This document shows, one piece after another, positions 19,427 to 62,823 of a stretch of DNA of 64,000 nt. Position numbers and translations under genes: made by a program. Below the pieces are notes generated by a model. That model saw only the letters and a program-made list of their open reading frames with translations. It did no database searches and was not told the DNA's origin. Every line of letters starts with the position of its first letter. Position 1 is the stretch's first letter. This DNA comes from Candidatus Kaiserbacteria bacterium (GTDB taxonomy: Bacteria > Patescibacteriota > Minisyncoccia > Phycocordibacterales > Phycocordibacteraceae), in assembly GCA_023264445.1 (NCBI GenBank), contig JAHFMN010000002.1, positions 142,720 to 206,719 on the forward strand. The letters are read 5' to 3'.

Positions 19427-19458
19427 GAACCGCCGGCTTTCGCCGGCGGTTCTTTTTC
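19427..19458 (+). terminator. rho-independent terminator
   Basis: gaaccgccggc-tttc-gccggcggttc followed by TTTTTC. Confidence 0.6.
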
Positions 19459-19742
19459 TACATCTCGAGAAGGTAGACAGGGAGGAGGGCGGCAAGTCCG
19501 GTGAGGAGTTGGAGTCCGAGCACCTGAAGCGCTTGTTTTGGGGCTCGCGGGAGCCAGGTAAGGGCAAAAAAGGCGATTATCGGCACCTGCCCGCCCATGA
19601 GTATCTGAAAGAGATGGGCGGCCACCCCTTCATCTTCCTCATGCACGACGCCGAAGAGCGCGAGAAAGGTGAGCAATACCCCGAGCGCAGTGAGCGACAT
19701 CGCCATCGGAATCCACGCGCTCGGTCGCTTGAGCAAGTTCAT
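19458..19742 (-). CDS. hypothetical small membrane protein
   Basis: 94-aa ORF with two or three hydrophobic helices; function unknown. Confidence 0.35.
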   Translation of the reverse strand: MNLLKRPSAWIPMAMSLTALGVLLTFLALFGVVHEEDEGVAAHLFQILMGGQVPIIAFFALTWLPRAPKQALQVLGLQLLTGLAALLPVYLLEM

Positions 19743-19773
19743 ATGTTTCTATAATCGTGTACGAACTGCGCCG

Positions 19774-19885
19774 GTTTCAATCTGCGGTGTAATCATATCC
19801 TTTGCGCGAACCTTTTTCGAGCGGAACTGACTGCGCACGCTCCGCGTGCGTCCGCCCTTTCTGAACTGGAAGTTTCAATCTGCGG
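19774..19885 (+). repeat. two copies of a 14-nt direct repeat GTTTCAATCTGCGG about 98 nt apart at the GC-rich/AT-rich junction left of the RM island
   Basis: Exact 14-mers at 19774-19787 and 19872-19885, each preceded by gaactg-type context. Confidence 0.5.
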
Positions 19886-20080
19886 AGACGATTGCCAGAA
19901 CTTTGAACCGATAGGACGGCTCAACTACAGCAATGTTGATAGGATTATACGAAAATTGAGGAAAATGCATAAGGAGCATCCTGAGTGGTTTGAGACTCCG
20001 AAACCAAAATCTGATAAGGGTAAAAATGAAATTGATTATCCTATCTAAATCATTATTTAGTATCGGGATTCTCTGGATAC

Positions 20081-21214
20081 TTATGAAGTAATCCCTACCT
20101 CTGTAGTAAGAGTAATATTCAATCCGACTAATTTTTCGAGTTGATTTACAAAGTCGCTTTTAAGAAAATAGATATCCTCGTATCTCTTCGCTAATTGTTT
20201 TTGTTCTTCAATGTCCGGAACTATTACTCCCTTTTTTTCTACCATCGGGAACTCAATCTCAATGTCTTTTATGCGTGCCTTTCCAGCTTTTCTCGAGAAT
20301 CCGAATCCATTCTCCACTGCTTTTTCCTCTAGCACATACTTAACAAATTCGTAATCAATTAGTCCCTCCCATCGTTTCTGGAGGATCAGAGGTATTACTT
20401 TTTCTGACAGAGAAAATCGACCCGTTCTAAAGAATGCTTTGCCTACCGATCCATCGATGTTCCATGTCAGGATATCGTTGAAATATTTTATATCGGGCAG
20501 ATTGTCTTGGAGGTGACCATATCCCGGGAAATCTTCGTCTTTAGAGGCACTGAAGACGGGTATATCTCCTTTATGCTGATCTACAAATTGTTTCGTGAAT
20601 GAGCTCATATTTGTTTGTTCTTCGAGATCAAATATTTCCTCTATCGTGAGTGTCGTGCTTCTAGTTTCAACTGGAATGTCTAAAGTGGTTTCATTTAATG
20701 CGACGATCTCGCTCGTCAGATAGTTTTCAAGAGTTTCAATGACTTTATATTTCTTAATTAATTCCTTCTGCGCCACAATATCGTAGTTGTCATTCTCGTC
20801 TACAGGAATGGATATCTGTGCTTTTTTAACCATGGCAATGGGCACTTTTGTAAACTCATTTTTCCCTCGATCACCCTTTCTTCCTTTAGCCATAGAGCGG
20901 AGAATTGGCTGGAGAGCGTATCGCAAGTATTCGATATCTACCGACACGCCTTTTTTAAGCATTAATATTCCTCGATCTCCATTGATGGAAAACTTTCCAG
21001 TGATCATCTTTAGGAACCCACCGAATCCGTTAGTTGCCCATGTTAGAAATTCACCATCATAGTCATAGTGATTGATATGCGTAAGCGGCATTGAATTTGC
21101 GGCTGAGTAAACGGGGTACTCTCCCTTTATCTTTTCTCCATATTCCTTGGTATATACGGAGTTTCCTCTGATGGGATCAACGACATCTGTTAGTTTTAAC
21201 TTTTTAAGTTTCAT
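20081..21214 (-). CDS. restriction-modification specificity subunit (HsdS-like; BcgIB-like) with two target-recognition domains
   Basis: 377 aa with a duplicated TRD architecture and the conserved central/distal helices of S subunits. Overlaps the upstream A-subunit gene by 4 nt. Confidence 0.75.
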   Translation of the reverse strand: MKLKKLKLTDVVDPIRGNSVYTKEYGEKIKGEYPVYSAANSMPLTHINHYDYDGEFLTWATNGFGGFLKMITGKFSINGDRGILMLKKGVSVDIEYLRYALQPILRSMAKGRKGDRGKNEFTKVPIAMVKKAQISIPVDENDNYDIVAQKELIKKYKVIETLENYLTSEIVALNETTLDIPVETRSTTLTIEEIFDLEEQTNMSSFTKQFVDQHKGDIPVFSASKDEDFPGYGHLQDNLPDIKYFNDILTWNIDGSVGKAFFRTGRFSLSEKVIPLILQKRWEGLIDYEFVKYVLEEKAVENGFGFSRKAGKARIKDIEIEFPMVEKKGVIVPDIEEQKQLAKRYEDIYFLKSDFVNQLEKLVGLNITLTTEVGITS

Positions 21215-23361
21215 TGATTTGTCTGGAGACCTTTAACTATCTCGTCGATCTTCGATTTGGTCTCTTGAATACGATCTAGGAATTGAGGCACTGTTAGGAC
21301 CTGTTTCTCATCTTCGATTCCTAATTCGACTTTCTCCTCCTCAGACCATAGACGGTCAACCGTCCAACTCTCAAGATCTACTGGGTCAAATATGTCTATG
21401 GGTTGAATCTTGCATCGGGGTGAGGCAGATATAAAGCTTTTTTTCGCGCCCTTGAATTGATTGAATAAACTGACCATCTCAGTCAGGTCATTTTTTTCAA
21501 TCGGGAATCTGTTTACGTCCAGTGTCTCTCCGATATTGGAAGCAAGATATGTAAATACTGGATCGGTTTGTTTGTGTTCTTTGCGCTCAGTTTCTGTCTT
21601 TCCAGATTTCTTAGTGATAGCGAGGATGTATGTCTTCTTAGGCGTGGTGTAGAAGGAGTTTATTGGTAGAGAGATTATGCCGTCTATCACGCATTCATTC
21701 TTTATAAATTCTCTTAGTCGTGCGTCGTTGATTCTGTGTAGAATTCCGTCCGGAATGATGACGAAAGCTTTTCGATTCGGCTTTAGGGTCCTTATGACCC
21801 ACTCCATGAAAAGTCCCTCTACGCCTATGCCGTTTACCTTGTAGAAAGCACTTAGATTGGAATCGCTCTTTATTGCTTCTTTGTAGTTACTACTACCGCT
21901 TGTGACGTAGGGAGGGTTGGTGAGGATCAGATCATACTTATCGCTCTCCGTTTTTGAGAGAGTCCCAAGTACAGTATTGCTTAGAAGCTTGAAAGTTGAG
22001 TTGAAAACGCGAGAGAATTCATGCGAAAGTGTCGGATTCTTAATAAGTAGTTCCGACAGGAAGATAAGCATGTTCGCCTTCGCTAGAATGATGGTGAGCT
22101 GTTCTTCTTTCTCAAAACCCTTGTCGAAGCCAGTGAGATTGAATCGCGGAAGGAGCTTTTCTCCTTTTACTTGGAAGTATCCATTCACCCCATCCTCTGT
22201 GAGCTTTATTGGCTCCAGTAAGAACCCTCCAACGCCGCAAGCCGGATCGCATATTTCCGCTCCCTCTTCAAGTTTTTCTATATCTGATATCTCAATGATT
22301 GCATCAATGATATTGCGAGGAGTGAAGTACTGACCCCAGTTCTTCTTACTGATACTCTTCTTCATAAAATCCTCGAAGACCTTGGACTTGAAGTTTGGAT
22401 CGATATTTTTAAGTTCTCCGAATTCGTTGAATTTCTTTAGAATCTTGTGGAAAACCTTTCCGTGCTCCGGAACGCTCGGATTAAGCACTGTACCGTTGAT
22501 GATCGTGGTCCCATCCTCCTTACTTGCAGGGAACATTGTCTTAAGCCAAGGTCTGACATTCTGATCATAATTCTTAAAAGCTTTGGCAGAGTCGAGACCA
22601 TAAATGTCACGGAAATTTACTTTATTACCCCTGTCATCTTCTTTTAGAATATCGAGATCGCTTAGATACTTAAAAATAAATATCTCCACGAAGGTGTATA
22701 AACATCGCTCTGGTGTCGCCCCACTGACAGACCACACATCTTGCCAGATTTGTTTCGCGAGAGTGCTTGGATCCACTAAGGTGCCCGGGATAATTTTTGA
22801 GTTTGTTGACGACATGAACTTTCGAACGGTCTCTAGATATTGCAAACTTGTTCTTGTCTTTGGATTTAGTTTTGTTGCATCATCCTCATCTATCTTTTGG
22901 TCAATAAGAAATTCCTTTATGAATGGGTTGTTGCCCTCATCTTTTATAATTGAATAGCTTCTTTTTTGACCCTTCGAATCAACGTAATCATTTGCACTAT
23001 CTGGTTGATTAGGGTTGATCCATACGTATGAAGTTTCATCTGTCGCAACACCCACTTCAGCACCTACCATTTGGCACACATCGTTGCATTGCTGTGCTGT
23101 TTTTATTTTGTCCTTTTCTGTTTTAAATTTTCCATCGTCTTTATATTCGACAACAAGAGCTACCCTAATATTTTTCCTGTTACGTCGGTCAACAAGTAGA
23201 CAGTCAGGTTTTCTTCCACCGCTCTCTTCATACTCTTTGTCAGGAATAATTTTAAATTTCTTTAGTTGATTAAGTGTAGTCGCGCCGATATTGTAATACT
23301 CAAAACCGCCCATCTTTAGACCGGCTTCTGTAAGACCACGTTGTTTCAGTTCTTCGCTCAT
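21211..23361 (-). CDS. Type IIB (BcgI-like) restriction enzyme A subunit: N-terminal PD-(D/E)xK endonuclease fused to gamma-class N6-adenine DNA methyltransferase
   Basis: N-terminal PD...EYK nuclease motif (KPDCLLVD ... VALVVEYK). Methyltransferase motif I ICDPACGVGGFLLE and motif IV LILTNPPY. No helicase/ATPase domain. Start may instead be 23427. Confidence 0.7.
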   Translation of the reverse strand: MSEELKQRGLTEAGLKMGGFEYYNIGATTLNQLKKFKIIPDKEYEESGGRKPDCLLVDRRNRKNIRVALVVEYKDDGKFKTEKDKIKTAQQCNDVCQMVGAEVGVATDETSYVWINPNQPDSANDYVDSKGQKRSYSIIKDEGNNPFIKEFLIDQKIDEDDATKLNPKTRTSLQYLETVRKFMSSTNSKIIPGTLVDPSTLAKQIWQDVWSVSGATPERCLYTFVEIFIFKYLSDLDILKEDDRGNKVNFRDIYGLDSAKAFKNYDQNVRPWLKTMFPASKEDGTTIINGTVLNPSVPEHGKVFHKILKKFNEFGELKNIDPNFKSKVFEDFMKKSISKKNWGQYFTPRNIIDAIIEISDIEKLEEGAEICDPACGVGGFLLEPIKLTEDGVNGYFQVKGEKLLPRFNLTGFDKGFEKEEQLTIILAKANMLIFLSELLIKNPTLSHEFSRVFNSTFKLLSNTVLGTLSKTESDKYDLILTNPPYVTSGSSNYKEAIKSDSNLSAFYKVNGIGVEGLFMEWVIRTLKPNRKAFVIIPDGILHRINDARLREFIKNECVIDGIISLPINSFYTTPKKTYILAITKKSGKTETERKEHKQTDPVFTYLASNIGETLDVNRFPIEKNDLTEMVSLFNQFKGAKKSFISASPRCKIQPIDIFDPVDLESWTVDRLWSEEEKVELGIEDEKQVLTVPQFLDRIQETKSKIDEIVKGLQTNQ

Positions 23362-23474
23362 CACACTAATCTTAGCAATTCCACAGAAAATGAAAAGGGG
23401 TCTCCCGCGTAAGAAAGTATTTCTCAAAACTAGTCAAATTCTGCTTGTTTTACAACAGTTCGAACTTGGACATC

Positions 23475-23566
23475 TGGCGGAGGGGGAGGGATTCGAACCC
23501 TCGATACGGTTTTACCCGTATAGCGAGTTAGCAACCCGCCGCACTAGGCCTCTATGCGACCCCTCC
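23475..23566 (-). tRNA. tRNA-Ser (GCU)
   Basis: Reverse complement folds as a 92-nt class II tRNA: acceptor GGAGGGG/CCCCTCC, anticodon loop TTGCTAA, long variable arm, T-loop GGTTCGAATCC, encoded CCA. Confidence 0.85.
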
Positions 23567-23588: not shown

Positions 23589-24197
23589 TTAGTGAGCTAA
23601 AGCTAACGAAATGACGTGCGTGGCGCCCGCTTCTTGAAACGTGATGATGGCGGCTTGGAGGGTGGCGCCGGTGGTGATGACGTCGTCCAAGACTATATAA
23701 GTGTATGCGGGGTCGGCGCGGCGCGTTGCCCTGAACGCGCCGCGCATGTTTTCTATGCGCTCGCGGCGGGGAAGGGAGACTTGCGAAGCAGTGTCGCGGG
23801 TGCGGATGAGGAGGGTCGTCTTGAGCGGAATACTAAGCTCCTTTGCGGCACGCTTCGCGACTTCTTCCACCTGGTTGAAGCCGCGCTCCTTGCGCCGCGC
23901 CGCGCTTAGAGGCACCGGTACGATGACGGGCTTGCGGGAAGTCTCGTCCGCCTCCCGCAGGTATTCGGCAAGCGCGGCGGCGAGGAGCGCGAAAGCGCGC
24001 TCGCTCCCGCGATATTTCGCTTCGTGGATAGCCGCGCGCACGCGCGCATCGCGGAAAGGGAGGAGCGCAACCGTCTCTGGGTTCGTTTCGCCCACAAGCC
24101 GCGGCGAGAGGAGTGCAAGAAAATCATCATCCGAGACGCCGCGAAGGGCGAGCTCATCCGAACGTGGCGGAAACAAGAAATCCAGAAAGCGCAGCAT
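23589..24197 (-). CDS. comFC: ComF family protein (ComFC-like phosphoribosyltransferase)
   Basis: C-terminal PRTase motif YIVLDDVITTGATL; size and context (divergent from the pil operon) fit ComFC. Confidence 0.65.
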   Translation of the reverse strand: MLRFLDFLFPPRSDELALRGVSDDDFLALLSPRLVGETNPETVALLPFRDARVRAAIHEAKYRGSERAFALLAAALAEYLREADETSRKPVIVPVPLSAARRKERGFNQVEEVAKRAAKELSIPLKTTLLIRTRDTASQVSLPRRERIENMRGAFRATRRADPAYTYIVLDDVITTGATLQAAIITFQEAGATHVISLALAH

Positions 24198-24211
24198 GAT
24201 ATCATTCTCGC

Positions 24212-25309
24212 ATGGCGTTTTTCTCTAATCTCTTTGCCAAGAAGGAGACAAGTGTCGTCGGAATCGATATCGGTTCTTCATCTCTAAAAGTCGTTCAGTT
24301 GCGTAAAGAGCGCGGCCAAGCCGTCCTCGAGACATACGGAGAGCTCTCACTCGGTCCCTACGGTGGAGGAGAAATCGGCCAAGCCACCAATCTCTCGCCC
24401 GAGCAGATCACAGAGACGCTGAAAGACCTCCTGCGCGAAGCGAAGGTGACGACGAAAAGCTGCGGTGTCTCCATTCCATATTCGCGTTCGCTTCTCACGC
24501 TCGTCAGTCTGCCATATCGCGCCGACCCGAAGGAGCAGAAAACCGTCATCGAGCTTGAAGCGCGCAAATACATCCCCGTGCCCATCAGCGAAGTCCAACT
24601 CGACTGGTTCGTCGTGCCGGAGGGGAATCCCGCTCAATCAATGGGGAACAACAGCACCGAACCTCTCGCACAGGGTCCGAAGATAAAGGTCCTTCTGGTG
24701 GCCGTCCACAACGACGAGCTCACCCAGCTCCAGAATATCGTCGCCGGAGCGGGACTTTCCGCGAGTTTCTACGAGATAGAGATTTTCAGCACCATTCGTG
24801 CTGCCGTCCTTGAGCCGGTGAAGCCCGTCATGGTGCTCGACATCGGTGCGGCAACCACGAAGGTCTACGTCGTGGAGCATGGCGTGGTCGCGCTTTCTCA
24901 TGCGGTAAGTGTCGGAAGCCAAGACATCACACGCGCTATATCAGTCTCCGGCAATGTGTCGCTCACGCAAGCCGAAGCATTGAAGAAAGAAGAGGGGATT
25001 AGCGGTGCTCGTGCGCTCGGCTCTCCCGAGCTCGTCTTCTCGCGCATTTTCTCCGAAGCGCGTCGTGTCCTCGTGCAGTACGAGACGATGCATCATAAGT
25101 CCATTGCTTCCATAGTGTGTACGGGCGGCGGTGCGACGACGAAGGAGCTCGGCGAGTATGCGAAGGGCGTGTTTGCAATCGATGTACAGATAGCTGACCC
25201 GTTTGCGAAAACCGAAGCGCCGGCGTTCATGCGCCCCGTGCTTGAAGAGATCGGTCCAGAGTTTGCAGTCGCTGTCGGCATCGCGCTGCGCAAGCTTGAA
25301 GAGGTGTAA
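24212..25309 (+). CDS. pilM: type IV pilus assembly protein PilM (actin-like ATPase)
   Basis: N-terminal VGIDIGSSSLKVVQL actin-fold phosphate-1 motif and overall PilM/FtsA-like length. Confidence 0.8.
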   Translation: MAFFSNLFAKKETSVVGIDIGSSSLKVVQLRKERGQAVLETYGELSLGPYGGGEIGQATNLSPEQITETLKDLLREAKVTTKSCGVSIPYSRSLLTLVSLPYRADPKEQKTVIELEARKYIPVPISEVQLDWFVVPEGNPAQSMGNNSTEPLAQGPKIKVLLVAVHNDELTQLQNIVAGAGLSASFYEIEIFSTIRAAVLEPVKPVMVLDIGAATTKVYVVEHGVVALSHAVSVGSQDITRAISVSGNVSLTQAEALKKEEGISGARALGSPELVFSRIFSEARRVLVQYETMHHKSIASIVCTGGGATTKELGEYAKGVFAIDVQIADPFAKTEAPAFMRPVLEEIGPEFAVAVGIALRKLEEV

Positions 25310-25310
25310 C

Positions 25311-25340
25311 CCTTACCACTTTATAAAGTGGTAAGGGTTT
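25311..25340 (+). terminator. hairpin (attenuator/terminator) between pilM and pilN
   Basis: cccttaccacttt-ataa-agtggtaaggg perfect 12-bp stem followed by ttttg. Confidence 0.45.
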
Positions 25341-25398
25341 TGCACAGTTGCCATACGGGTTGCTTGTGTAAATAACGTATACTGAAAGAGAACGTACC

Positions 25399-26058
25399 AT
25401 GCCTCCCACGATACCTACTTCGTTCATTCCTCAATCAGCGTCCGCATCGGCGCGCCATTTCCGTAGCGATTTTACCGGCGCCTTCGGCTTCTTCGCGTAT
25501 GCCGTGCTCGGCGTCGTCTTCTTGCTCGCCATCCTCGTGTTCTTCTACGGCGGTGTCCTCTCGGCTTCTAAAACGTCCAAGGATATGGCACTCGCGAATG
25601 CTCAGGCGAGCATCGACCCCGCGACGGTAGAAAACTTCGTGAAGTTGCGCAACCGCCTCACCTCCGGCGAGTCTCTGCTCGAAAAGCATGTCGCATTCTC
25701 TCCATTCTTCGCTCTGCTTGAGAGACTGCTTCCAGAGAGCGTACGCTTCACACTGCTGAATCTCTCGGTGAGCAATACTGGTACGACGAAGGTCGAGGCG
25801 GCCGGCATCGCGAAGAGCTTCAACGCGCTCGCCGTCGCCTCAAATGCGTTTGCGGCCGACGGCCGTATCAAGGACGCTATCTTTTCAAACATCAGCGTGA
25901 CGAAGAACGGTTTCGTCTCGTTCGCCCTCTCGGCGACGCTTGATCCAAAACTCATCTCCTTCACTTCTCCCTCCGCAGGATCGTTTGCACCTGAACCGAC
26001 TATGACCGAGCCCGCACCGGCAGAGTCGTCAGCCACGACTGCACCCCCTACGCTATGA
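25399..26058 (+). CDS. PilN-like type IV pilus assembly protein
   Basis: Single N-terminal TM, coiled region, position after pilM; low sequence complexity at the C-terminus. Confidence 0.5.
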   Translation: MPPTIPTSFIPQSASASARHFRSDFTGAFGFFAYAVLGVVFLLAILVFFYGGVLSASKTSKDMALANAQASIDPATVENFVKLRNRLTSGESLLEKHVAFSPFFALLERLLPESVRFTLLNLSVSNTGTTKVEAAGIAKSFNALAVASNAFAADGRIKDAIFSNISVTKNGFVSFALSATLDPKLISFTSPSAGSFAPEPTMTEPAPAESSATTAPPTL

Positions 26059-26600
26059 ACTCCCGCGTCCTTCCACTCGTCGCTCTAATCGTCGCCGGAG
26101 GCATGTTCTTCTTCTATGTGAATCCGGTCTGGAGTGGCCCAATCGCTGCGACGAAGGCTGCAATCGCACACGACGACCTAGCGCTTGCTGCCGCAAAGCA
26201 ATATGCGGCCCAGCAGAACGCGCTTGCTTCGGAGCGTGATGCGATCGATCCAAATGACCTCGCGCGCCTCACGACCTTCCTGCCTGACTCGGTGGATAAC
26301 GTCGGGCTCATCCTTGACTTGAATGGGCTTGCAGCGCGCTCGGGCCTCCTCTTGCAAAATATCGATGTAACGGCCAACAACACGGTTGTACCAGGCGCGC
26401 AGTCAACCGTCGCAACGAATCCAGTGGGCTCGGTCGACCTCTCGATATCCGCGGCTGGTCCGTATTCGGCCCTCCAGACATTTCTCGCCGGAGTAGAGCG
26501 AAGCGCGCGCCTGCTCGATCTGCGCAGCGTCATCGTGAAGGGTTCCGATACGGGCGTGTACGTCTACCAGATGACGCTGCGCCTGTACTGGCTCCGCTAG
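26055..26600 (+). CDS. PilO-like type IV pilus assembly protein
   Basis: N-terminal TM, coiled-coil and C-terminal ferredoxin-like region; 4-nt overlap with pilN. Confidence 0.5.
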   Translation: MNSRVLPLVALIVAGGMFFFYVNPVWSGPIAATKAAIAHDDLALAAAKQYAAQQNALASERDAIDPNDLARLTTFLPDSVDNVGLILDLNGLAARSGLLLQNIDVTANNTVVPGAQSTVATNPVGSVDLSISAAGPYSALQTFLAGVERSARLLDLRSVIVKGSDTGVYVYQMTLRLYWLR

Positions 26601-26613
26601 CACTATATTTATT

Positions 26614-26898
26614 ATGAAAAACTCAAACGTCGTCCTCCTCATCCTCGCAACGCTCATTGTCGCTGCGGGCGTGTATTGGTATTTCTTCACCGGGACGGGC
26701 AATGATGCGCCACTTACCCCGACGACAGCCGAAAACGCCGCGCAGTCCCAGTTCCAGGTGCTCGTGAGCGAGCTACAGCCGATCACGTTTAATACCGGTA
26801 TATTTTCCAACCCGCAATTCCTGTCGCTCGTCGACCTCACCACGCCAGTTGCCCCTGAAATGAGCGGCCGCTTGGACCCCTTCGGCTCGGTCCATTAG
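26614..26898 (+). CDS. small membrane-anchored protein (possible PilP-like)
   Basis: 94 aa, N-terminal TM helix, position between pilO and pilB. Confidence 0.3.
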   Translation: MKNSNVVLLILATLIVAAGVYWYFFTGTGNDAPLTPTTAENAAQSQFQVLVSELQPITFNTGIFSNPQFLSLVDLTTPVAPEMSGRLDPFGSVH

Positions 26899-26917
26899 CA
26901 CGAGCGGAAAATGAGTA

Positions 26918-28708
26918 ATGAACTTCCTCGCCTCCCTCGTCGATAAAGGACTCCTCTCCGCTGCTGATCAACGGGCTATACAAAACGAAGTTGCGCAGCA
27001 GCGTCCGCTTGCGGACGCGCTTTCCGAGCGCGGTCTCTCGCTTCCGGACGCTCTTGCGGAAGTTGGTGCTGCGTACGGCCTTCCTACGCGCATCCTCGGC
27101 GAGCCTCCAGCCGACGAAGAGGTATTCAGCTATATTCCGCTTGAGTCTGCTCGCCACTACAATTTCGTGCCGCTCGACGTCAATGAAGGCGCACTCGAAG
27201 TCGGCGTCACCGACCCCGACAATATCGAAGCACTTGATGCGCTGCAATTCATCTCGAGTAAGATCGGCATGCCATACAAGGTCTTCCTCATCACCAAGGA
27301 GGATTTCGACCGAGTCATTGATGCATATCAAAATATTTCAGGCGAGATAGGGAAGGCTCTTTCTGAATATGAGACGACGGCAGAACCCGCCGAGAAGGCA
27401 AAGGCCGCGCCGGACACCCCGGTGCTTCCAGAAGAGGCACCAGCGCTCGGCGAAGAAGCACCGCTCACACTCACCGACGCACGCGAGAATCTCAAAGCAG
27501 ACGCGCCAGTGACTAAGATCGTTTCTACGATATTGCGCTATGCCATCGATGGCCGCTCTTCCGACATCCACGTCGAGCCCACGCACGCAAAGACGCGTGT
27601 CCGCTTCCGTCTCGACGGCGACCTGCACACCTCACTTGAACTGCCGGCAAAGGTGCATGAGGCGGTCGTCGCGCGCATCAAAATCCTCGCTAAGCTTCGG
27701 CTCGACGAGAAGCGCAAACCGCAAGACGGCCGCTTCTCGGCCGTCGTCGAGAAGCGTCATATCGATTTCCGCGTCTCCACCTTCCCGACAGAGTATGGGG
27801 AGAAGGTCGTGATGCGTATCCTCGACCGCTCCGACACGACTGCGACGCTCGAGACAGTCGGATTCTCGGCCGAGCAGCTTGTGGAAGTCCGGAAGATGCT
27901 CCAAGTCCCGTACGGCATCATCCTGATTGCCGGACCGACTGGCTCCGGTAAGTCCACAACGCTCTTCGCCATGCTTTCCGAGACCGACCGCGAGACGGCG
28001 AACGTCGTCTCGCTTGAAGATCCGGTTGAGTACGAGATTCCCGGCGTCGCGCAGAGCCAGGTGCGACCGGAGATCGGCTACACGTTTGCCAACGGCCTGC
28101 GCTCCATCTTGCGCCAGGACCCGGACATCATCATGGTCGGCGAAATCCGCGATAAGGAGACCGCCGGGCTCGCGGTGCAAGCGGCGCTCACTGGCCACCT
28201 CGTCTTCTCCACCATTCACACCAACACCGCCGTCGGCGCTATCCCACGCCTCATCAATATGGGCGTGGACCCGTTCCTCATCGCACCGACCCTGATTTCC
28301 GTCATCGGTCAGCGACTCGTGCGTAAGCTCTGTCCGGGCGGCGGGAAGCCATTTCCCGTCAAAGACAGCGTGAAGCTTTTCCTCGACCGACAATTCGCCG
28401 ATCTGCCGGAGCAATATAGGAAGGAATTGCCGCCTTTCAAGGAGTTCTATCACGCAGCGGCCACGGCTGAGTGCCCGAACGGCACGCGCGGCCGCACTGG
28501 CGTCTTCGAGATATTGCGCATGGATAAGACGCTTGAGCAGGTCGTGCTCAAGCAGCCGGTGGAGGAGCATATTTTTGCCGCCGCGCGCGCAAACGGCATG
28601 CTTACTATGCGCGAGGACGCTATTAAAAAGGCGCTTGCCGGCGAGATACCGTTTGAAGACGTGAATACGCTCGGCGGGGAACTTTTCCCCGAGGAAGAAA
28701 CCGCTTGA
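26918..28708 (+). CDS. pilB: type IV pilus assembly ATPase PilB (GspE family)
   Basis: Walker A GPTGSGKST, Asp box, His box, tetracysteine-like region CPGGG ... CPNGTRGRTGVFE. Confidence 0.9.
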   Translation: MNFLASLVDKGLLSAADQRAIQNEVAQQRPLADALSERGLSLPDALAEVGAAYGLPTRILGEPPADEEVFSYIPLESARHYNFVPLDVNEGALEVGVTDPDNIEALDALQFISSKIGMPYKVFLITKEDFDRVIDAYQNISGEIGKALSEYETTAEPAEKAKAAPDTPVLPEEAPALGEEAPLTLTDARENLKADAPVTKIVSTILRYAIDGRSSDIHVEPTHAKTRVRFRLDGDLHTSLELPAKVHEAVVARIKILAKLRLDEKRKPQDGRFSAVVEKRHIDFRVSTFPTEYGEKVVMRILDRSDTTATLETVGFSAEQLVEVRKMLQVPYGIILIAGPTGSGKSTTLFAMLSETDRETANVVSLEDPVEYEIPGVAQSQVRPEIGYTFANGLRSILRQDPDIIMVGEIRDKETAGLAVQAALTGHLVFSTIHTNTAVGAIPRLINMGVDPFLIAPTLISVIGQRLVRKLCPGGGKPFPVKDSVKLFLDRQFADLPEQYRKELPPFKEFYHAAATAECPNGTRGRTGVFEILRMDKTLEQVVLKQPVEEHIFAAARANGMLTMREDAIKKALAGEIPFEDVNTLGGELFPEEETA

Positions 28709-28736
28709 CCTCGGCACGTTGTATACTGAATCCACA

Positions 28737-29135
28737 ATGGCGTACCGAGTTTTTCTAGTTGATGACGATCGATTCCTTCTCGACCTATACGCCGTCAAGT
28801 TTAAGAACGCTGGACACGAAGTGAGCGTGTTCGGTAATGGCGAAGAGCTTCTTACTGGGCTGCGCAAGGCTGATACAGTCGCGCCGGACGCGATTCTGCT
28901 TGATCTCATCATGCCGGGTGTGGGAGGCTTCGAAGCGCTTGAGGCGATACGCAAGGAGCATCTGGCCAAAGGTACAAAAATAATCGTGCTCTCAAATCAG
29001 GGTCAAGATGCCGATATTGAGAAGGCAAAGTCGCTCTCTGCTGATGGCTACATCATCAAAGCGTCCGCAATCCCTTCGGAGGTACTTGCAGAAACTCTGA
29101 AAACAATCGAAGCGGGCGCGGCGAAATCAAGCTGA
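28737..29135 (+). CDS. response regulator receiver (CheY-like, PilH-like single REC domain)
   Basis: DDD acidic pocket (FLVDDD), phospho-acceptor D in ILLDLIMP, and conserved K in the YIIKA region. Confidence 0.75.
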   Translation: MAYRVFLVDDDRFLLDLYAVKFKNAGHEVSVFGNGEELLTGLRKADTVAPDAILLDLIMPGVGGFEALEAIRKEHLAKGTKIIVLSNQGQDADIEKAKSLSADGYIIKASAIPSEVLAETLKTIEAGAAKSS

Positions 29136-29136
29136 T

Positions 29137-30198
29137 ATGGCCGTCGACCAACATCTGCAGGGGCTTCTCGACCTCGTCGTTTCTCAAGGCGCGTCTGATC
29201 TCCACATCTTCGCCGGCGGCCCGCCGATGCTGCGCGTGTCGGGAGCGCTGATTCCCGTCGCCAAATATGATGCGCTCACCAACGAGCAGACGGAAGCGAT
29301 GTTGAAGAGTATGGTCCCGTCGGAGCGTTGGCAATCGTTCGAGCAGAACCAGACCATCGATCTCTCCTATGCGCACAAGGAGGATGCGCGCTTCCGCGTC
29401 AACGGCTACCGCGTGCAGGGTTCGGTCGCGCTCGCGCTGCGTCTTGTGCCACACGCCATCCGCACCTTCAGCGAGCTTAATCTCCCCTCCATACTCGAAG
29501 TGTTCACCCAGCGCGAGCAAGGATTCTTCCTCGTTGTCGGGCCGGTGGGGCAGGGCAAGTCGACGACACTCGCGACGATGATAGACCGCATCAATGATTC
29601 GCGAGCAAACCACATCCTCACCATCGAAGACCCGGTGGAATACCTATTTACTCCGAAAAAATCGCTCGTCCATCAGCGCGAAATATATATCGACGCTCCT
29701 GATTTCCATTCTGCGCTTCAAAGTGCGTTTCGCGAAGACGTCGACGTGATCATGGTGGGGGAGATGCGAGATTACGAGACTATTTCTTCGGCAGTAACCG
29801 CCGCCGAGACCGGCCATCTCGTCTTCTCCACGCTCCATACCAACAACGCCGCCCAGACCATCGACCGCATCATTGATATGTTCCCCGCCGAACAGCAGGC
29901 CCAAGTACGCGTGCAGCTCGCGGGAAGCCTTGCGGGCATCTTCTCCCAACGACTCATCCCGAGGGTCTCGGGCGGGCTCATTCCGGCGTACGAACTGCTC
30001 ATCAATAACAACGCTGTGAGCACACTTATTCGCGATGCACGCACCCACGAGATCGGCTCCATAATCCAGACCTCCTCGGAGGAGGGCATGATCGACATGG
30101 ATCGCGCGCTTGCCGAGCTCGTGCACAAAGGCGAGGTGACCGTCGAGCATGCATACGAGCATGCGATGGACGCGAAGACATTTGAACGCTATCTCTAA
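29137..30198 (+). CDS. pilT: twitching motility / pilus retraction ATPase PilT
   Basis: Walker A GPVGQGKST, AIRNLIRE-like motif in VSTLIRDARTHEIGSIIQT. Confidence 0.9.
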   Translation: MAVDQHLQGLLDLVVSQGASDLHIFAGGPPMLRVSGALIPVAKYDALTNEQTEAMLKSMVPSERWQSFEQNQTIDLSYAHKEDARFRVNGYRVQGSVALALRLVPHAIRTFSELNLPSILEVFTQREQGFFLVVGPVGQGKSTTLATMIDRINDSRANHILTIEDPVEYLFTPKKSLVHQREIYIDAPDFHSALQSAFREDVDVIMVGEMRDYETISSAVTAAETGHLVFSTLHTNNAAQTIDRIIDMFPAEQQAQVRVQLAGSLAGIFSQRLIPRVSGGLIPAYELLINNNAVSTLIRDARTHEIGSIIQTSSEEGMIDMDRALAELVHKGEVTVEHAYEHAMDAKTFERYL

Positions 30199-30202
30199 CA
30201 CC

Positions 30203-31408
30203 ATGCTTTTCACCTACCGCGCAATTGACCAAGACGGGCACGAACGAGAGGGGAGCATTGAAGCCACCTCGAAAGATGTTGCCGTGTCCGCACTCCAGCG
30301 GCGCAACCTCATTATCTCAGCCATTAATTCTGCCGAGAAGCACTCGATGCTTGATTTCTCGATCCCCTTTTTCAGTCGTATTTCAAACAAAGACGTCGTC
30401 ATCCTCTCGCGCCAGGTGGCGACTCTCTTTGAGGCACAGGTGCCGCCGCTGCGCGTCTTCCGGCTTCTTGCAGCAGAAGTGGAGAACAAGAATCTCGCGA
30501 AAGTGCTCTCAGCGGTCGGCGACGATATCCAGGGTGGCAGTCCCATCAGCAAAGCGCTCGCTCACCACCCGACCGTCTTCTCCATGTTCTACGTGAATAT
30601 GGTGCGCGCGGGCGAAGAATCGGGGAAATTGTCAGAAACATTCCTGTATCTCGCCGATTATCTGGACCGCGTCTACGACATCGTCAGCAAGGCCGAGAAC
30701 GCGCTCATCTACCCGATTTTCGTTATCGTCGTCTTCTTTGCCGTGATGGGGCTTATGCTCACCCTTGTCATTCCGAAGATAAGCGCCGTCCTTATTGATT
30801 CCGGCCAGGCGGTACCGATCTATACCTCTGTTGTCATCGGTCTTTCCAATTTCGTCGTCCATTACGGCATCTTCATACTTATCGGGCTTTTTGCTCTCGG
30901 TATCTATGTGTGGCAGCTCGGGAAGACCGAACGCGGGAAGTACGTGATGGACAGTTTGAAGCTCTCGGTGCCGTACGTAGGCGACCTCTACGAAAAGCTG
31001 TACCTCGCCCGCATTTCCGACAACTTCTCCACGATGCTGCTCTCCGGCATATCGGTCGTCGAAGCTATTGAAATCACTGGCTCGGTTGTGGGGAATTCCG
31101 TCTTCGCATCGGTGCTCAGCGAGGTCGGTGCAGATGTGAAGGGCGGCGCCTCCATTTCAGACTCTCTCAGCAAACATCCGGAGATACCGGGCATCATGGT
31201 CGCGATGACAAAGGTCGGAGAAGAGAGCGGCGAGCTCGGCAAGATTCTCACCACGCTCGCTAAATTCTATAGTCGCGAGGTGACGAATGCCGTGGATACC
31301 CTCGTCGGCCTCATCGAGCCGATTATGATAGTCCTCCTCGGTCTTGGCGTCGGTACCTTACTTGCTGCTGTTCTTCTTCCAATTTATAACCTCGCAGGGT
31401 CCATCTAG
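30203..31408 (+). CDS. pilC: type IV pilus platform protein PilC (GspF family)
   Basis: Two GspF repeats, three TM helices, about 400 aa. Confidence 0.85.
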   Translation: MLFTYRAIDQDGHEREGSIEATSKDVAVSALQRRNLIISAINSAEKHSMLDFSIPFFSRISNKDVVILSRQVATLFEAQVPPLRVFRLLAAEVENKNLAKVLSAVGDDIQGGSPISKALAHHPTVFSMFYVNMVRAGEESGKLSETFLYLADYLDRVYDIVSKAENALIYPIFVIVVFFAVMGLMLTLVIPKISAVLIDSGQAVPIYTSVVIGLSNFVVHYGIFILIGLFALGIYVWQLGKTERGKYVMDSLKLSVPYVGDLYEKLYLARISDNFSTMLLSGISVVEAIEITGSVVGNSVFASVLSEVGADVKGGASISDSLSKHPEIPGIMVAMTKVGEESGELGKILTTLAKFYSREVTNAVDTLVGLIEPIMIVLLGLGVGTLLAAVLLPIYNLAGSI

Positions 31409-60960: not shown

Positions 60961-62823
60961 ATGTTTGATACAATGGAGAGGATGGTTCAGCGGGGATTCA
61001 TACACATTTTCTTAGTTCTCATAGCTGTTGTGCTGATTGGCGCGGGCGTTTACATGGTTTTTCACACACGCTTAACAATCACACCCAATCTCCCGCCAGA
61101 ATCCTCATCAACTTCAGAAACGTCGAGCCAGGCAAACAATTCCACCTCCGTTCTTGCGGGTAATCCAGTTTCCGATTCAACATCAGTCCCAGTCTCGTCT
61201 CCACCTTCCTCGTCCACCGGGGTTCCTGTCTCAAATGGCTCATCACCCCTTGGCTCAAATGTAAATTATATTGCCGACTGGGTGTCGGAGATCATGCTCA
61301 AAGATGTCGGTAGGCGGATTCGCGACTTCACGTGTACTCCATCGCCATGTACGGTAGACGCAAACGGCTGGCCAATCATATCCTCCGGTCAAACGGCGGC
61401 AACAAGTATCTTTACCAATCTTGCAGGAAAATATCCGACAGGTACGTACCATGTGTTCTATGACGGCGTCGGCTCGCTTAATTATAGTGGAGGAACGCGG
61501 GATGCTGGAGCATCAAACGCCGGGCATGATGTGGTTACGGTGACGAACAATACGAGTGGATTCGGTTATTCCATCACCTCAAGCAATCCTTCCCCGAATC
61601 ACATCAGGAATATCCGGGTCATTATTCCCGGCGGCGACTGTGGTGATGTGTTTGTGCCGGCAGACACGGCATCGGATTGTACTAACTCGGCACGTTTTCG
61701 CCCCAATTATCAAACGTATGTTGAACAGCCGTTTTATAGTCGATTTTTGAAACTATACCGTCCCTACAAAGCCATCCGCTACCTCAATGTGTTGCTACCT
61801 GACCAGGGTTCGCAGGGAGGAGCGATACTTACCACACCCCGCCCATGGTCAGCGCGAGTGAAAATGACCGATGCCATCTGGCTGCGGCGAGGCGTACCGG
61901 TTGAGTTGCTAGTAAAACTGGCAAACACACTGCACGCCGATCCGTGGTTTACCATCCCGCATCTTGCCAATGACCTTATCAGTGATAATCCCTCAGATCC
62001 GTACGTTCGGCAGTTCGCAACGTATGTTCGCGACAATCTGAATACCGATCTGAAGGCCTATGTTGAGTATTCCAATGAAGTGTGGAACGGAATGTTTGAG
62101 TCAAGCCGCCATGCCACTCAGAAAGGGCAGGACTTAGGACTTTCTACGGCGGATAATAAGAATCTCGGCTCCCTCCGCTATCAATCACAGCAATCGGTCA
62201 AGCTATTCAAAATATGGAACGATGTATACGGCGGCCGTTCGAAGCGGATAGTGCGAGTGATAGCAGCGCAAGGTACTGTCGGAATGTCGGAAGGCGAACC
62301 GTATGCCGCAAAAAATCTACTTGATTGGCAGGAAGCATATAAAGCAGCAGATGCACTCGCAGTCCCTGAATATTTCAATGCATTGCCGCAAGATCAGGCG
62401 ACCGTTGCCGCCTATACGCTCGATCAACTTTTTGCATACATAAAAGAGACTCTCATCCCAAGAAATATTCTTGTAACTAAGGATAATGCTGCTGCGGCAA
62501 AGAAACGCGGACTTGAGCTCATTGCGTATGAAGGAGGACAGCACTTAGTCGAACTAGGGGATTTCCAGAAAAACACAAACTTAAATTCGCTCTATAATGC
62601 TGCGAATCGCGACCAACGCATGGGCGAGGCATATGCGCAACTTCTGAATGGATGGAGGGAGAACGGCGGACACCTTTTCGTGCATTTCCTCAATGTGAGT
62701 CAGCAGGCGTCTGGTGCATTCGGGCGTTTCGGCGCGCTTGAATCCATGCTGCAAGATCCGGCAGTATCTCCCAAATACCAAGCACTTATGACATTTATTG
62801 CGGATAATCCAAAGTGGTGGTGA
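60961..62823 (+). CDS. membrane-anchored extracellular protein, putative clan GH-A (TIM-barrel) glycoside hydrolase
   Basis: N-terminal TM anchor, Ser/Thr/Pro-rich linker. Candidate acid/base YSNEVWNG and nucleophile LIAYEGGQH motifs in GH-A-like spacing. Motif-level inference only. Confidence 0.35.
   Translation: MFDTMERMVQRGFIHIFLVLIAVVLIGAGVYMVFHTRLTITPNLPPESSSTSETSSQANNSTSVLAGNPVSDSTSVPVSSPPSSSTGVPVSNGSSPLGSNVNYIADWVSEIMLKDVGRRIRDFTCTPSPCTVDANGWPIISSGQTAATSIFTNLAGKYPTGTYHVFYDGVGSLNYSGGTRDAGASNAGHDVVTVTNNTSGFGYSITSSNPSPNHIRNIRVIIPGGDCGDVFVPADTASDCTNSARFRPNYQTYVEQPFYSRFLKLYRPYKAIRYLNVLLPDQGSQGGAILTTPRPWSARVKMTDAIWLRRGVPVELLVKLANTLHADPWFTIPHLANDLISDNPSDPYVRQFATYVRDNLNTDLKAYVEYSNEVWNGMFESSRHATQKGQDLGLSTADNKNLGSLRYQSQQSVKLFKIWNDVYGGRSKRIVRVIAAQGTVGMSEGEPYAAKNLLDWQEAYKAADALAVPEYFNALPQDQATVAAYTLDQLFAYIKETLIPRNILVTKDNAAAAKKRGLELIAYEGGQHLVELGDFQKNTNLNSLYNAANRDQRMGEAYAQLLNGWRENGGHLFVHFLNVSQQASGAFGRFGALESMLQDPAVSPKYQALMTFIADNPKWW

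What the first reader, a model, noticed from the sequence alone, without database searches (positions are those of the whole stretch)
19890..23474. BcgI-like Type IIB restriction-modification island next to tRNA-Ser
The AT-rich insertion holds a 716-738-aa protein with an N-terminal PD-(D/E)xK nuclease motif and a gamma-class NPPY N6A-methyltransferase. It has no helicase domain, so it is not a Type I HsdR/HsdM. It is translationally coupled to an HsdS-like two-TRD specificity subunit. That combination is the BcgIA/BcgIB architecture, which cuts on both sides of a bipartite site. The island ends exactly at the tRNA-Ser 3' end and has no integrase.
Basis: partly seen in the sequence, partly recalled or inferred. 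Interest (0 to 1): 0.55.

Follow-up and report, generated by a model that had tools for sequence, protein, structure and literature searches.

The report
BcgI-style restriction-modification cassette beside tRNA-Ser
A small bacterium of the Paceibacterota group has acquired a two-gene defence cassette, one protein that both cuts and methylates DNA plus a separate sequence-reading subunit, built like the known BcgI class of restriction enzymes; it is a sound annotation rather than a new kind of system.

Summary
Two minus-strand genes overlap by 4 nt (ATGA). One encodes a 716-aa protein with an N-terminal PD..ExK nuclease domain, a helical connector, a gamma-class NPPY adenine methyltransferase and a C-terminal tail helix. 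The other encodes a 377-aa HsdS-like subunit with two target-recognition domains. They fill a 3.6-kb stretch of 40% GC (GC3 0.39-0.44) in a host of about 57% GC (GC3 0.66-0.76). The stretch begins exactly at the 3' end of tRNA-Ser(GCT). It holds no helicase, integrase or second methylase.

The architecture is that of the "RM + S, Type I-like" group of Type IIB enzymes (BcgI, BaeI, SdeOSI, HpyUM032XIII). The protein family is compact and spread across bacteria and archaea. It occurs in all three known Type IIB chain layouts: RM+S, RM fused to one recognition domain, and single-chain RMS.

Cutting on both sides of a bipartite site is inferred, not shown. Homology to BcgI itself could not be tested. 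Verdict: a new member of a known kind, ordinary, and under-annotated in databases as "N-6 DNA methylase".

In passing: the island's far border cuts into a conserved, roughly 390-nt structured non-coding element. This element recurs next to tRNA-Ser genes in related metagenomes and matches no Rfam family.

The parts
21211..23361 (-). RM gene: 716-aa fused restriction endonuclease and N6-adenine methyltransferase (an alternative TTG start at 23427 would give 738 aa)
   Evidence: all homologues start MSEEL at the ATG
22792..23361 (-). N-terminal PD-(D/E)xK nuclease domain (aa 1-190). P52-D53 is at 23203-23208 and E72-Y73-K74 at 23140-23148
22327..22767 (-). Helical connector, equivalent to the HsdM N-terminal helical domain (aa about 199-345)
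   Evidence: secondary structure of the model; Foldseek alignments to HsdM, BpuSI and BsaXI
21439..22383 (-). Gamma-class N6-adenine methyltransferase domain (aa 327-641). Motif I DPACGVGGF is at 372-380. NPPY is at 482-485, nt 21907-21918
   Evidence: Pfam N6_Mtase E 4.5e-30; PDB HsdM hits; motifs verified
21217..21291 (-). C-terminal tail helix (aa 691-715), the expected docking helix for the S subunit's conserved coiled coil
   Evidence: helix H691-715 in the model; the 'CTT' feature of RM+S Type IIB proteins in PMC11997821 Table S2. Its docking role is inferred
20081..21214 (-). S gene: 377-aa HsdS-like specificity subunit, TRD1 (about 1-150), CR1, TRD2 (about 196-335), CR2
   Evidence: Pfam Methylase_S in 2 stretches; PADLOC Specificity_I; the two halves are 27% identical, E 4e-14, and the recognition domains reassort independently among homologues
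21211..21214 (-). ATGA overlap of the RM stop and the S start (translational coupling plausible)
   Evidence: the same 4-nt overlap occurs in L009, L011, L015, L016 and on a Rhizobium plasmid
19886..23474 (.). Low-GC island (40.4% GC) that holds only the two genes
   Evidence: Homology to syntenic relatives L089, L090 and L092 stops at 23475-23477
23475..23566 (-). tRNA-Ser(GCT), on the same strand as comF, RM and S. The island starts at its 3' end
19784..19848 (+). Remnant (positions 4-68 of about 394) of a conserved structured non-coding element, pointing into the island. A second copy is cut after its first 4 nt (GCGG, 19882-19885) exactly where the low-GC DNA starts
19774..19885 (+). Two exact copies of GTTTCAATCTGCGG (19774-19787 and 19872-19885). 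Each is the junction that precedes a copy of the element
   Evidence: (0.04 expected by chance)

Best explanation
This is a self-contained Type IIB-style restriction-modification system of the BcgI design. Two RM polypeptides are expected to dock through their C-terminal tail helices onto the coiled-coil regions of one S subunit, giving (RM)2S. The two different recognition domains of S would read the two halves of an asymmetric bipartite site. Each methyltransferase domain would flip and N6-methylate one adenine per half-site, using AdoMet, which protects host DNA. On unmethylated DNA the N-terminal PD-ExK domains, with Mg2+, would cut at fixed short distances outside the site, most likely on both sides and probably only when two sites are bridged. 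No ATP-driven translocation is involved.

Shown here: gene structure, domains, catalytic motifs and their invariance, fold similarity, absence of a helicase or partner genes, and foreign base composition. Inferred: stoichiometry, bipartite recognition, double-sided cleavage, and activity in this host.

The cassette was acquired horizontally into the variable stretch just downstream of tRNA-Ser(GCT). It may be transcribed by read-through from comF and tRNA-Ser, since all four genes share a strand and no promoter-like site was found upstream of RM.

For: The S subunit has two recognition domains that reassort independently, and its gene overlaps RM by ATGA. The closest homologues (77-81% identity) occur as the same bare two-gene cassette in unrelated neighbourhoods without a helicase, as does a Rhizobium plasmid copy. 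No large ORF in the 64-kb window is HsdR-like. The family shows all three published Type IIB layouts among 80 loci: 10 RM+S, 13 RM plus one recognition domain, 54 RMS.

The literature definitions match. PMC4081073 describes an N-terminal PD-D/EXK domain, a distal gamma NPPY methylase, no companion methylase, and S with two opposed domains. PMC11997821 describes RM+S members as M.EcoKI-like with a C-terminal tail, 626-680 aa. Foreign origin is supported by GC3 of 0.39-0.44 against 0.66-0.76. The syntenic relative L089 lacks the cassette, with homology breaking at the tRNA 3' end.
Confidence: 0.8

Rival explanations
1. An orphan Type I-like M2S methyltransferase. The N-terminal domain would be a degenerate or non-catalytic relic, so the pair only methylates DNA (epigenetic or anti-restriction role) and does not restrict.
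For: Databases name it only 'N-6 DNA methylase' or 'type I M protein'. The best sequence and fold hits are HsdM. Pfam has no significant nuclease hit (VRR_NUC E 0.012, below cut-off).
Against: P52 is nearly invariant, and D53, D58, E72 and K74 are invariant over 25 homologues from many phyla. The domain folds confidently and matches restriction nuclease domains first. The domain is kept at the N-terminus in every full-length family member.
Confidence: 0.08
2. A Type IIG-like enzyme with a detached specificity subunit that cuts on one side only of its site, so it would not be Type IIB in the strict sense.
For: The nuclease domain is most similar to that of BpuSI, a one-sided Type IIG cutter. 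Sidedness cannot be read from sequence.
Against: An HsdS-type subunit with two recognition domains binds two catalytic subunits in a pseudo-symmetric way, which places a nuclease on each side. BcgI, CspCI and BsaXI, the RM+S enzymes described in the papers read here, cut on both sides (PMC4081073, PMC11997821).
Confidence: 0.08
3. The M and S parts of a classical Type I system (or a Type ISP, MADS or BREX module) whose helicase-nuclease partner is encoded elsewhere.
For: PADLOC MTase_I and mad2 models hit at E 1e-42 to 1e-25. NCBIfam MAD2 and hsdM give partial hits.
Against: The NCBIfam scores are far below the cut-offs: MAD2 89 against 720, hsdM 52 against 243, PglX 21 against 500. There is no helicase or HsdR in the island, in the 64-kb window or beside four independent homologous cassettes. 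The protein carries its own nuclease.
Confidence: 0.03

Closest known systems
BcgI (Type IIB; A2B = (RM)2S)
   Same: A two-gene system. The RM protein has an N-terminal PD..EXK nuclease (Glu53 in BcgI; E72 here), a gamma-class NPPY adenine methylase, an M.EcoKI-like fold and a C-terminal tail. There is a separate HsdS-like subunit with two recognition domains, no helicase and no companion methylase (PMC3592470, PMC4081073, PMC11997821).
   Different: RM is 716 aa here against 637 aa in BcgI, and S is 377 aa here (BcgI's S length was not checked). Sequence homology to BcgI was not tested, and the nuclease-domain profile did not reach proteins of BcgI-like length. The recognition site, cleavage geometry and two-site requirement are unknown here.
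BsaXI (Type IIB, cryo-EM structures 8W0P and 8W2P)
   Same: An (RM)2S design. The full-length model aligns to BsaXI RM over about 690 columns at E 3e-11. Both have a canonical PD-(D/E)xK site in the N-terminal domain.
   Different: BsaXI RM is 916 aa, with 'knob' and 'paddle' motifs and a methylase fold unlike M.EcoKI. This protein has neither addition and ends in a single tail helix.
Type I methyltransferase cores M2S (EcoKI, StySJI, EcoR124I, PacII)
   Same: They are the closest sequence and fold relatives of the methylase and connector. The S-subunit organisation is the same, and the M-S genes overlap.
   Different: There is no HsdR motor-nuclease subunit. A nuclease domain is fused to the N-terminus of the methylase instead.
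BpuSI, MmeI and DrdV (Type IIG/IIL single-chain RM enzymes)
   Different: Those enzymes carry their own fused recognition domain, which is not HsdS-like, and they cut on one side.
AloI, TstI and HaeIV forms of Type IIB
   Same: Within this same sequence family, 54 of 80 loci are single-chain RMS (1037-1100 aa) and 13 are RM plus one recognition domain (861-924 aa). These mirror the AloI-type and HaeIV-type layouts.
   Different: The window's system is the split RM+S form. The family's RMS proteins are about 200 aa shorter than AloI and TstI (1251-1262 aa).

Membership tests
Type IIB restriction-modification enzymes | Restriction and modification in one polypeptide, with an N-terminal PD-(D/E)xK nuclease domain | tested here: met
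   P52-D53 and E72-x-K74 are invariant or nearly so in homologues. The fold matches restriction nuclease domains.
Type IIB restriction-modification enzymes | Gamma-class (NPPY/F/W) N6-adenine methyltransferase distal to the nuclease | tested here: met
   Motif I at 372-380 precedes NPPY at 482-485. Pfam N6_Mtase E 4.5e-30.
Type IIB restriction-modification enzymes | No ATP-dependent translocase | tested here: met
   No helicase or ATPase family in RM or S. None in the island, the window's large ORFs or four homologous cassettes.
Type IIB restriction-modification enzymes | Works without an accompanying separate methyltransferase | tested here: met
   The island holds only RM and S. The same holds in L094, L096, L098 and L100.
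Type IIB restriction-modification enzymes | Bipartite recognition through two recognition domains (S subunit or S domain) | tested here: inconclusive
   S has two HsdS-type domains that reassort independently. The recognition sequence itself was not determined.
Type IIB restriction-modification enzymes | [quoted passage not shown] | not testable with these tools
   This needs biochemistry. It is inferred only from the (RM)2S design.
BcgI sequence family (REBASE) | Detectable sequence homology to BcgIA and BcgIB | not testable with these tools
   No BcgI or REBASE sequences were available. An indirect route through H. pylori BcgI-like genes failed. The nuclease-domain profile found no proteins of 626-637 aa among the 150 listed hits.
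RM+S 'Type I-like' structural group of Type IIB (PMC11997821) | R, helical connector and M.EcoKI-like methylase domains ending in a lone C-terminal helix, with a separate S subunit | tested here: met
   The model's secondary structure ends in helix 691-715. The best methylase fold matches are HsdM, including EcoKI. The S gene is adjacent.
Type I restriction-modification | Separate HsdR subunit with SF2 helicase motor and nuclease | tested here: not met
   No such gene in the island or the 64-kb window, nor beside homologous cassettes. The rest of the genome was not seen.
Type ISP (LlaGI-like) | Helicase-like motor in the same polypeptide | tested here: not met
   The 716 aa are fully accounted for by nuclease, connector, methylase and tail.
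MADS (MAD2) and BREX (PglX) methyltransferases | Score above the curated NCBIfam cut-off | tested here: not met
   MAD2 89 bits against a cut-off of 720. PglX 20.8 against 500.
tRNA-targeted integrative genomic island | Inserted at the 3' end of a tRNA gene | tested here: met
   Low-GC DNA starts at 23474, next to the tRNA 3' end at 23475. Synteny with L089, L090 and L092 breaks there.
tRNA-targeted integrative genomic island | Integrase gene and a direct repeat of the tRNA 3' end at the far border | tested here: not met
   There is no integrase ORF. The tRNA 3' 20-mer has no second match even with 3 mismatches, and no exact repeat of 10 nt or more lies within 6 kb downstream.

The most novel reading that the evidence does not exclude
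The RM cassette may not be a random insertion. It may occupy a recurrent cargo slot bounded by tRNA-Ser on one side and by a conserved, roughly 390-nt structured non-coding element on the other. That element matches no Rfam family, carries an invariant 30-mer, and is linked to tRNA-Ser genes across Paceibacterota-like metagenomes. If the element is the recombination or target site of an integrase-free or trans-acting gene-exchange mechanism in these reduced genomes, the island would be an example of a new kind of hotspot. Separately, this 716-aa RM clade could be an uncharacterised Type IIB lineage with new specificities.
Probability: 0.15. Interest if true: 0.55.

Novelty: new member of a known kind. 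Interest (0 to 1): 0.22.

Why it matters
The practical gain is annotation. Thousands of homologues are filed as "N-6 DNA methylase" or "type I M protein", although they carry a conserved nuclease domain and are probably complete restriction enzymes. The family contains RM+S, RM plus one recognition domain, and RMS forms at 46-82% identity. That makes it a natural series for studying how Type IIB chain topology evolves, and a possible source of new double-cutting enzymes of the kind used in 2b-RAD-type methods. For Paceibacterota biology, it shows a recently acquired defence cassette immediately beside the comF and type IV pilus DNA-uptake genes, in a variable stretch downstream of tRNA-Ser. 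None of this changes current understanding of restriction-modification.

Tried and rejected
1. Link to the H. pylori BcgI-like system Hpy99XXII. Locus L061, labelled Helicobacter cetorum, looked like an orthologue (682-aa RM). Its closest relatives are RMS proteins of Sulfurovum and Arcobacter, no H. pylori protein appeared, and its RM/S split is a frameshift at an A9 tract. The link was dropped.

2. Profile searches of PDB sequences with the whole protein and with the N-terminal domain. They gave only HsdM hits and nothing for the nuclease domain. BsaXI and BpuSI were reached only by structure.

3. The AFDB50 fold library, which might have returned BcgI, was unavailable.

4. A tRNA-derived att repeat at the left border. 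None was found. The short resemblance ATCTGCGGAG / ATCTGGCGGAG was judged too weak.

5. Logan contig breaks at 23504 and 19795 as evidence for an island-free strain. They are equally explained by tRNA sequence shared among co-occurring relatives, so they were not used.

6. The open frame 19758-20047 (…KMHKEHPEWFETPKPKSDKGKNEIDYPI*) as a gene remnant. It has no start giving 60 aa or more, and no Pfam or locus homologue.

7. Plasmid or phage carriage. Only three long plasmid matches were found (99%, 94% and 68% of the query) and no phage copy with the nuclease domain.

8. For the conserved border element, the following were tested and not supported: tmRNA, RNase P, any known Rfam family, a conserved small ORF, and mobility genes between inverted copies.
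Full report
**Observation**

The window carries two co-directional minus-strand ORFs. The RM gene is 21211..23361. It gives 716 aa from the ATG; an upstream in-frame TTG at 23427 would give 738 aa. The S gene is 20081..21214, 377 aa. All 25 aligned homologues begin MSEEL, and an identical 716-aa gene call exists in public data (P0001), so the ATG is the start. The RM stop and the S start overlap as ATGA.

ARAGORN places tRNA-Ser(GCT) at 23475..23566 on the same strand, so the tRNA's 3' end faces the RM gene 113 nt away. GC drops from 0.55-0.62 to 0.37-0.45 over about 19886-23474. Third-position GC is 0.44 for RM and 0.39 for S, against 0.66-0.76 in six flanking genes. No other ORF of credible size lies in the low-GC stretch.

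**What the proteins are**

Pfam finds N6_Mtase (E 4.5e-30) and Eco57I (2.7e-9) in RM, and Methylase_S in two stretches (4.9e-17) in S. NCBIfam and PADLOC add only generic methylase and specificity-subunit models, with MAD2, hsdM and PglX far below their cut-offs. No helicase or ATPase family appears.

In an alignment of 25 homologues (59-82% identity), D53, D58, E72 and K74 are invariant and P52 nearly so. The same holds for motif I (D372, G376-G379) and N482-P483-P484. Translation confirms PD, EYK, DPACGVGGF and NPPY at those positions. Motif I before motif IV is the gamma-class order.

An AlphaFold2 model (pLDDT 77.6) shows four parts: an alpha/beta N-terminal domain, a helical region (about 199-345), the Rossmann-type methylase, and a long terminal helix at 691-715. 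Foldseek against the PDB ranks Type I HsdM proteins first over the methylase part. It also gives near-full-length alignments to the Type IIG enzyme BpuSI (712 columns, E 7e-12), the Type IIB enzyme BsaXI (691 columns, 3e-11) and DrdV.

The two halves of the S protein are 27% identical (E 4e-14). Among homologues, TRD1 and TRD2 vary independently. For example, L011 and L012 share TRD2 at 67-71% identity but TRD1 at only 25-26%. This is the classical HsdS pattern.

**Family and context**

More than 4,000 database proteins match. The closest (60-82% identity) come from Phycisphaerae, Saccharibacteria, Bathyarchaeota, Aenigmarchaeota, Nitrosopumilus and others, and are named only "N-6 DNA methylase" or "type I M protein".

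A scan of one genome per GTDB species found 336 stretches encoding a relative. Among the 80 best loci, 10 have RM (681-716 aa) with an S gene alongside (one of them, L082, detected only by BLAST, as an overlapping ORF), four of them with the same 4-nt overlap. Another 13 have RM fused to one recognition domain (861-924 aa), and 54 are single-chain RMS (1037-1100 aa). These are exactly the three primary forms described for Type IIB enzymes: BcgI, HaeIV and AloI (PMC4081073).

The nuclease-domain profile finds only 249 clusters among 1.84 billion representatives. Full-length hits cluster near 680-730, 860-910 and 1035-1100 aa, and among these (and most of the shorter listed fragments) the domain sits at the N-terminus.

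The three closest homologues examined (77-81% identity) sit in unrelated neighbourhoods as bare two-gene cassettes, and DNA similarity is confined to the two genes. A Rhizobium plasmid carries the same overlapping pair, annotated "N-6 DNA methylase" and "restriction endonuclease subunit S". No HsdR-like gene is present in any of these contexts or among the window's ORFs of 450 aa or more.

**Host and island**

ComF homologues identify the host as a Paceibacterota/Kaiserbacteria-like member of the Patescibacteria. Relative L089 is syntenic on both sides, from pilM, comF and tRNA-Ser to the DUF378 gene, ABC transporter, FtsX, His_Phos_1 and GroEL. It lacks the cassette. Nucleotide homology ends at the tRNA's 3' end (window 23477) and resumes at window 19405.

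Other relatives carry different content after the same tRNA. L090 and L091 have a low-GC stretch with an XRE regulator and two unknown genes. L089 has a 15-nt copy of the tRNA 3' end 171 nt downstream. The flank of this tRNA is therefore a variable region.

In the window there is no integrase and no tRNA-derived repeat at the far border. How the cassette arrived is unknown. comF, tRNA-Ser, RM and S share a strand, and no promoter-like site lies between the tRNA and RM. Read-through transcription is a reasonable guess and nothing more.

**Mechanism**

The best-supported model is the published Type IIB RM+S scheme (PMC4081073, PMC3592470, PMC11997821). It has four elements:
- an (RM)2S trimer;
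- S reading an asymmetric bipartite site;
- each methylase modifying one adenine per half-site;
- the N-terminal nucleases cutting at fixed distances outside the site on unmethylated DNA, without ATP, probably after bridging two sites.

The sequence shows the parts and their conservation. Stoichiometry, site, sidedness and activity are inferred. I put 0.8 on [quoted passage not shown], and somewhat less on strict double-sided cutting.

**Comparison and membership**

The system meets every sequence-testable feature of Type IIB enzymes and of the "RM + S, Type I-like, C-terminal tail" group. That group includes BcgI 637 aa, BaeI 626, SdeOSI 630, HpyUM032XIII 679 and Hso63250II 680. It fails the defining features of Type I, Type ISP, MADS and BREX.

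Membership of the BcgI sequence family could not be tested. An attempted bridge through H. pylori's BcgI-like genes failed. The methylase's best matches are Type I HsdM. This is expected for the group and does not refute the reading.

**Seen in passing: a conserved element at the left border**

I searched public metagenome contigs for a host-side 30-mer near the left border (window 19795-19824), hoping to find an empty site. It gave 53 exact hits instead. The 30-mer belongs to a conserved non-coding element of 386-474 nt. Copies fall into subfamilies, have no consistent ORF, match no Rfam family, and are not called as tmRNA.

Seven complete copies fold into a shared multi-helix structure. It has 98 predicted pairs, 19 of them with compensatory changes, and length variation sits at hairpin tips. 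The copies come from only two subfamilies, so independent support is thin.

Of 27 tRNA genes in these loci, 17 are tRNA-Ser. Copies often lie just after, or convergent with, a tRNA-Ser, with 0.25-3.6 kb of variable and apparently non-mobile genes in between.

The window keeps only positions 4-68 of the element (19784-19848). The next copy is cut after its first four bases, exactly where the low-GC DNA begins. The reverse complement of the 30-mer reads as a sigma-70-like promoter (TCGAAA-N17-TATGAT) pointing toward the 94-aa membrane ORF at 19742..19458. I could not decide what the element is.

**Verdict**

This is a correct and well-read finding of an ordinary kind: a new member of the Type IIB-style RM+S systems, horizontally acquired next to tRNA-Ser in a Paceibacterota genome. 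The interest is low for the system itself. The border element deserves separate study.

Noticed in passing
window 19784-19848 (+), and loci L101-L153: A remnant of a conserved 386-474-nt non-coding element with an invariant 30-mer (ATATCCTTTGCGCGAACCTTTTTCGAGCGG). The 30-mer has 53 exact hits in metagenome contigs. The element has no Rfam match, no ORF and no tmRNA call. Its predicted multi-helix structure has 19 of 98 pairs with compensatory changes. It is strongly associated with tRNA-Ser genes (17 of 27 nearby tRNAs).
   Followed up: partly
window 19774-19787 and 19872-19885: An exact 14-nt direct repeat, GTTTCAATCTGCGG (0.04 expected by chance). Each copy is the junction preceding a copy of the element above. 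The second copy ends exactly where the low-GC island starts, and the same junction sequence precedes a fuller copy in L133.
   Followed up: partly
window 19792-19820 (-): The reverse complement of the invariant 30-mer is a sigma-70-like promoter (TCGAAA-N17-TATGAT; TATAAT in other subfamilies). It points toward the 94-aa ORF 19742..19458, a small membrane protein with a weak Phage_holin_3_2 hit (E 0.002, below cut-off).
   Followed up: partly
L089 7892-7906: In the island-free syntenic relative, a 15-nt exact copy of the tRNA-Ser 3' end (TCCCTCCCCCTCCGC) lies 171 nt downstream of the tRNA. This looks like an att-type scar of a past integration.
   Followed up: partly
L090 7651-10516 and L091: Another relative has a LAGLIDADG-type ORF between comF and tRNA-Ser. 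After the tRNA comes a low-GC stretch (XRE HTH, 250-aa and 99-aa unknowns) that ends against the 3' part of the conserved element.
   Followed up: partly
L147 8427-9900 and L152: The conserved element is interrupted at about position 95 by an ORF resembling the C-terminal part of a large serine recombinase (judged by eye; not run against Pfam). This suggests that the element can be an insertion target.
   Followed up: no
window 23589-31000: Directly beside the island lie comF and a type IV pilus / DNA-uptake cluster: PilM-like, three small membrane proteins, PilB-type and PilT-type ATPases, a response regulator, PilC, a pilin and a prepilin peptidase. A restriction system thus sits next to the competence genes. 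No functional link was tested.
   Followed up: no
window 19758-20047 (+): An open frame without a usable start spans the host-GC/low-GC boundary and ends …KMHKEHPEWFETPKPKSDKGKNEIDYPI*. It has no homologue in Pfam or in the fetched loci and may be a remnant of donor DNA.
   Followed up: partly
L061 10030-10050: In this relative (a cave metagenome bin labelled Helicobacter cetorum), the RM and S parts of an RMS-type gene are separated by a frameshift at an A9 tract. This could be phase variation or a sequencing error.
   Followed up: no
window 23478-23531 (+): The Rfam hit 'Plastid-psbl-rps4' (51.7 bits, below its gathering score of 68) lies antisense to tRNA-Ser, and the same hit appears in L117. 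It is almost certainly an artefact of that model containing tRNA-Ser antisense sequence.
   Followed up: no
window 23485-23504 and 19795; loci L003, L004, L007, L008: Independent Logan assemblies of two samples break inside the last 30 nt of tRNA-Ser, and one breaks at 19795, the first base of the invariant 30-mer. This is consistent with both sequences being repeats shared among co-occurring genomes.
   Followed up: partly
window 60961-62823 (+): A 620-aa ORF with no Pfam family at E 1e-5 or better.
   Followed up: no
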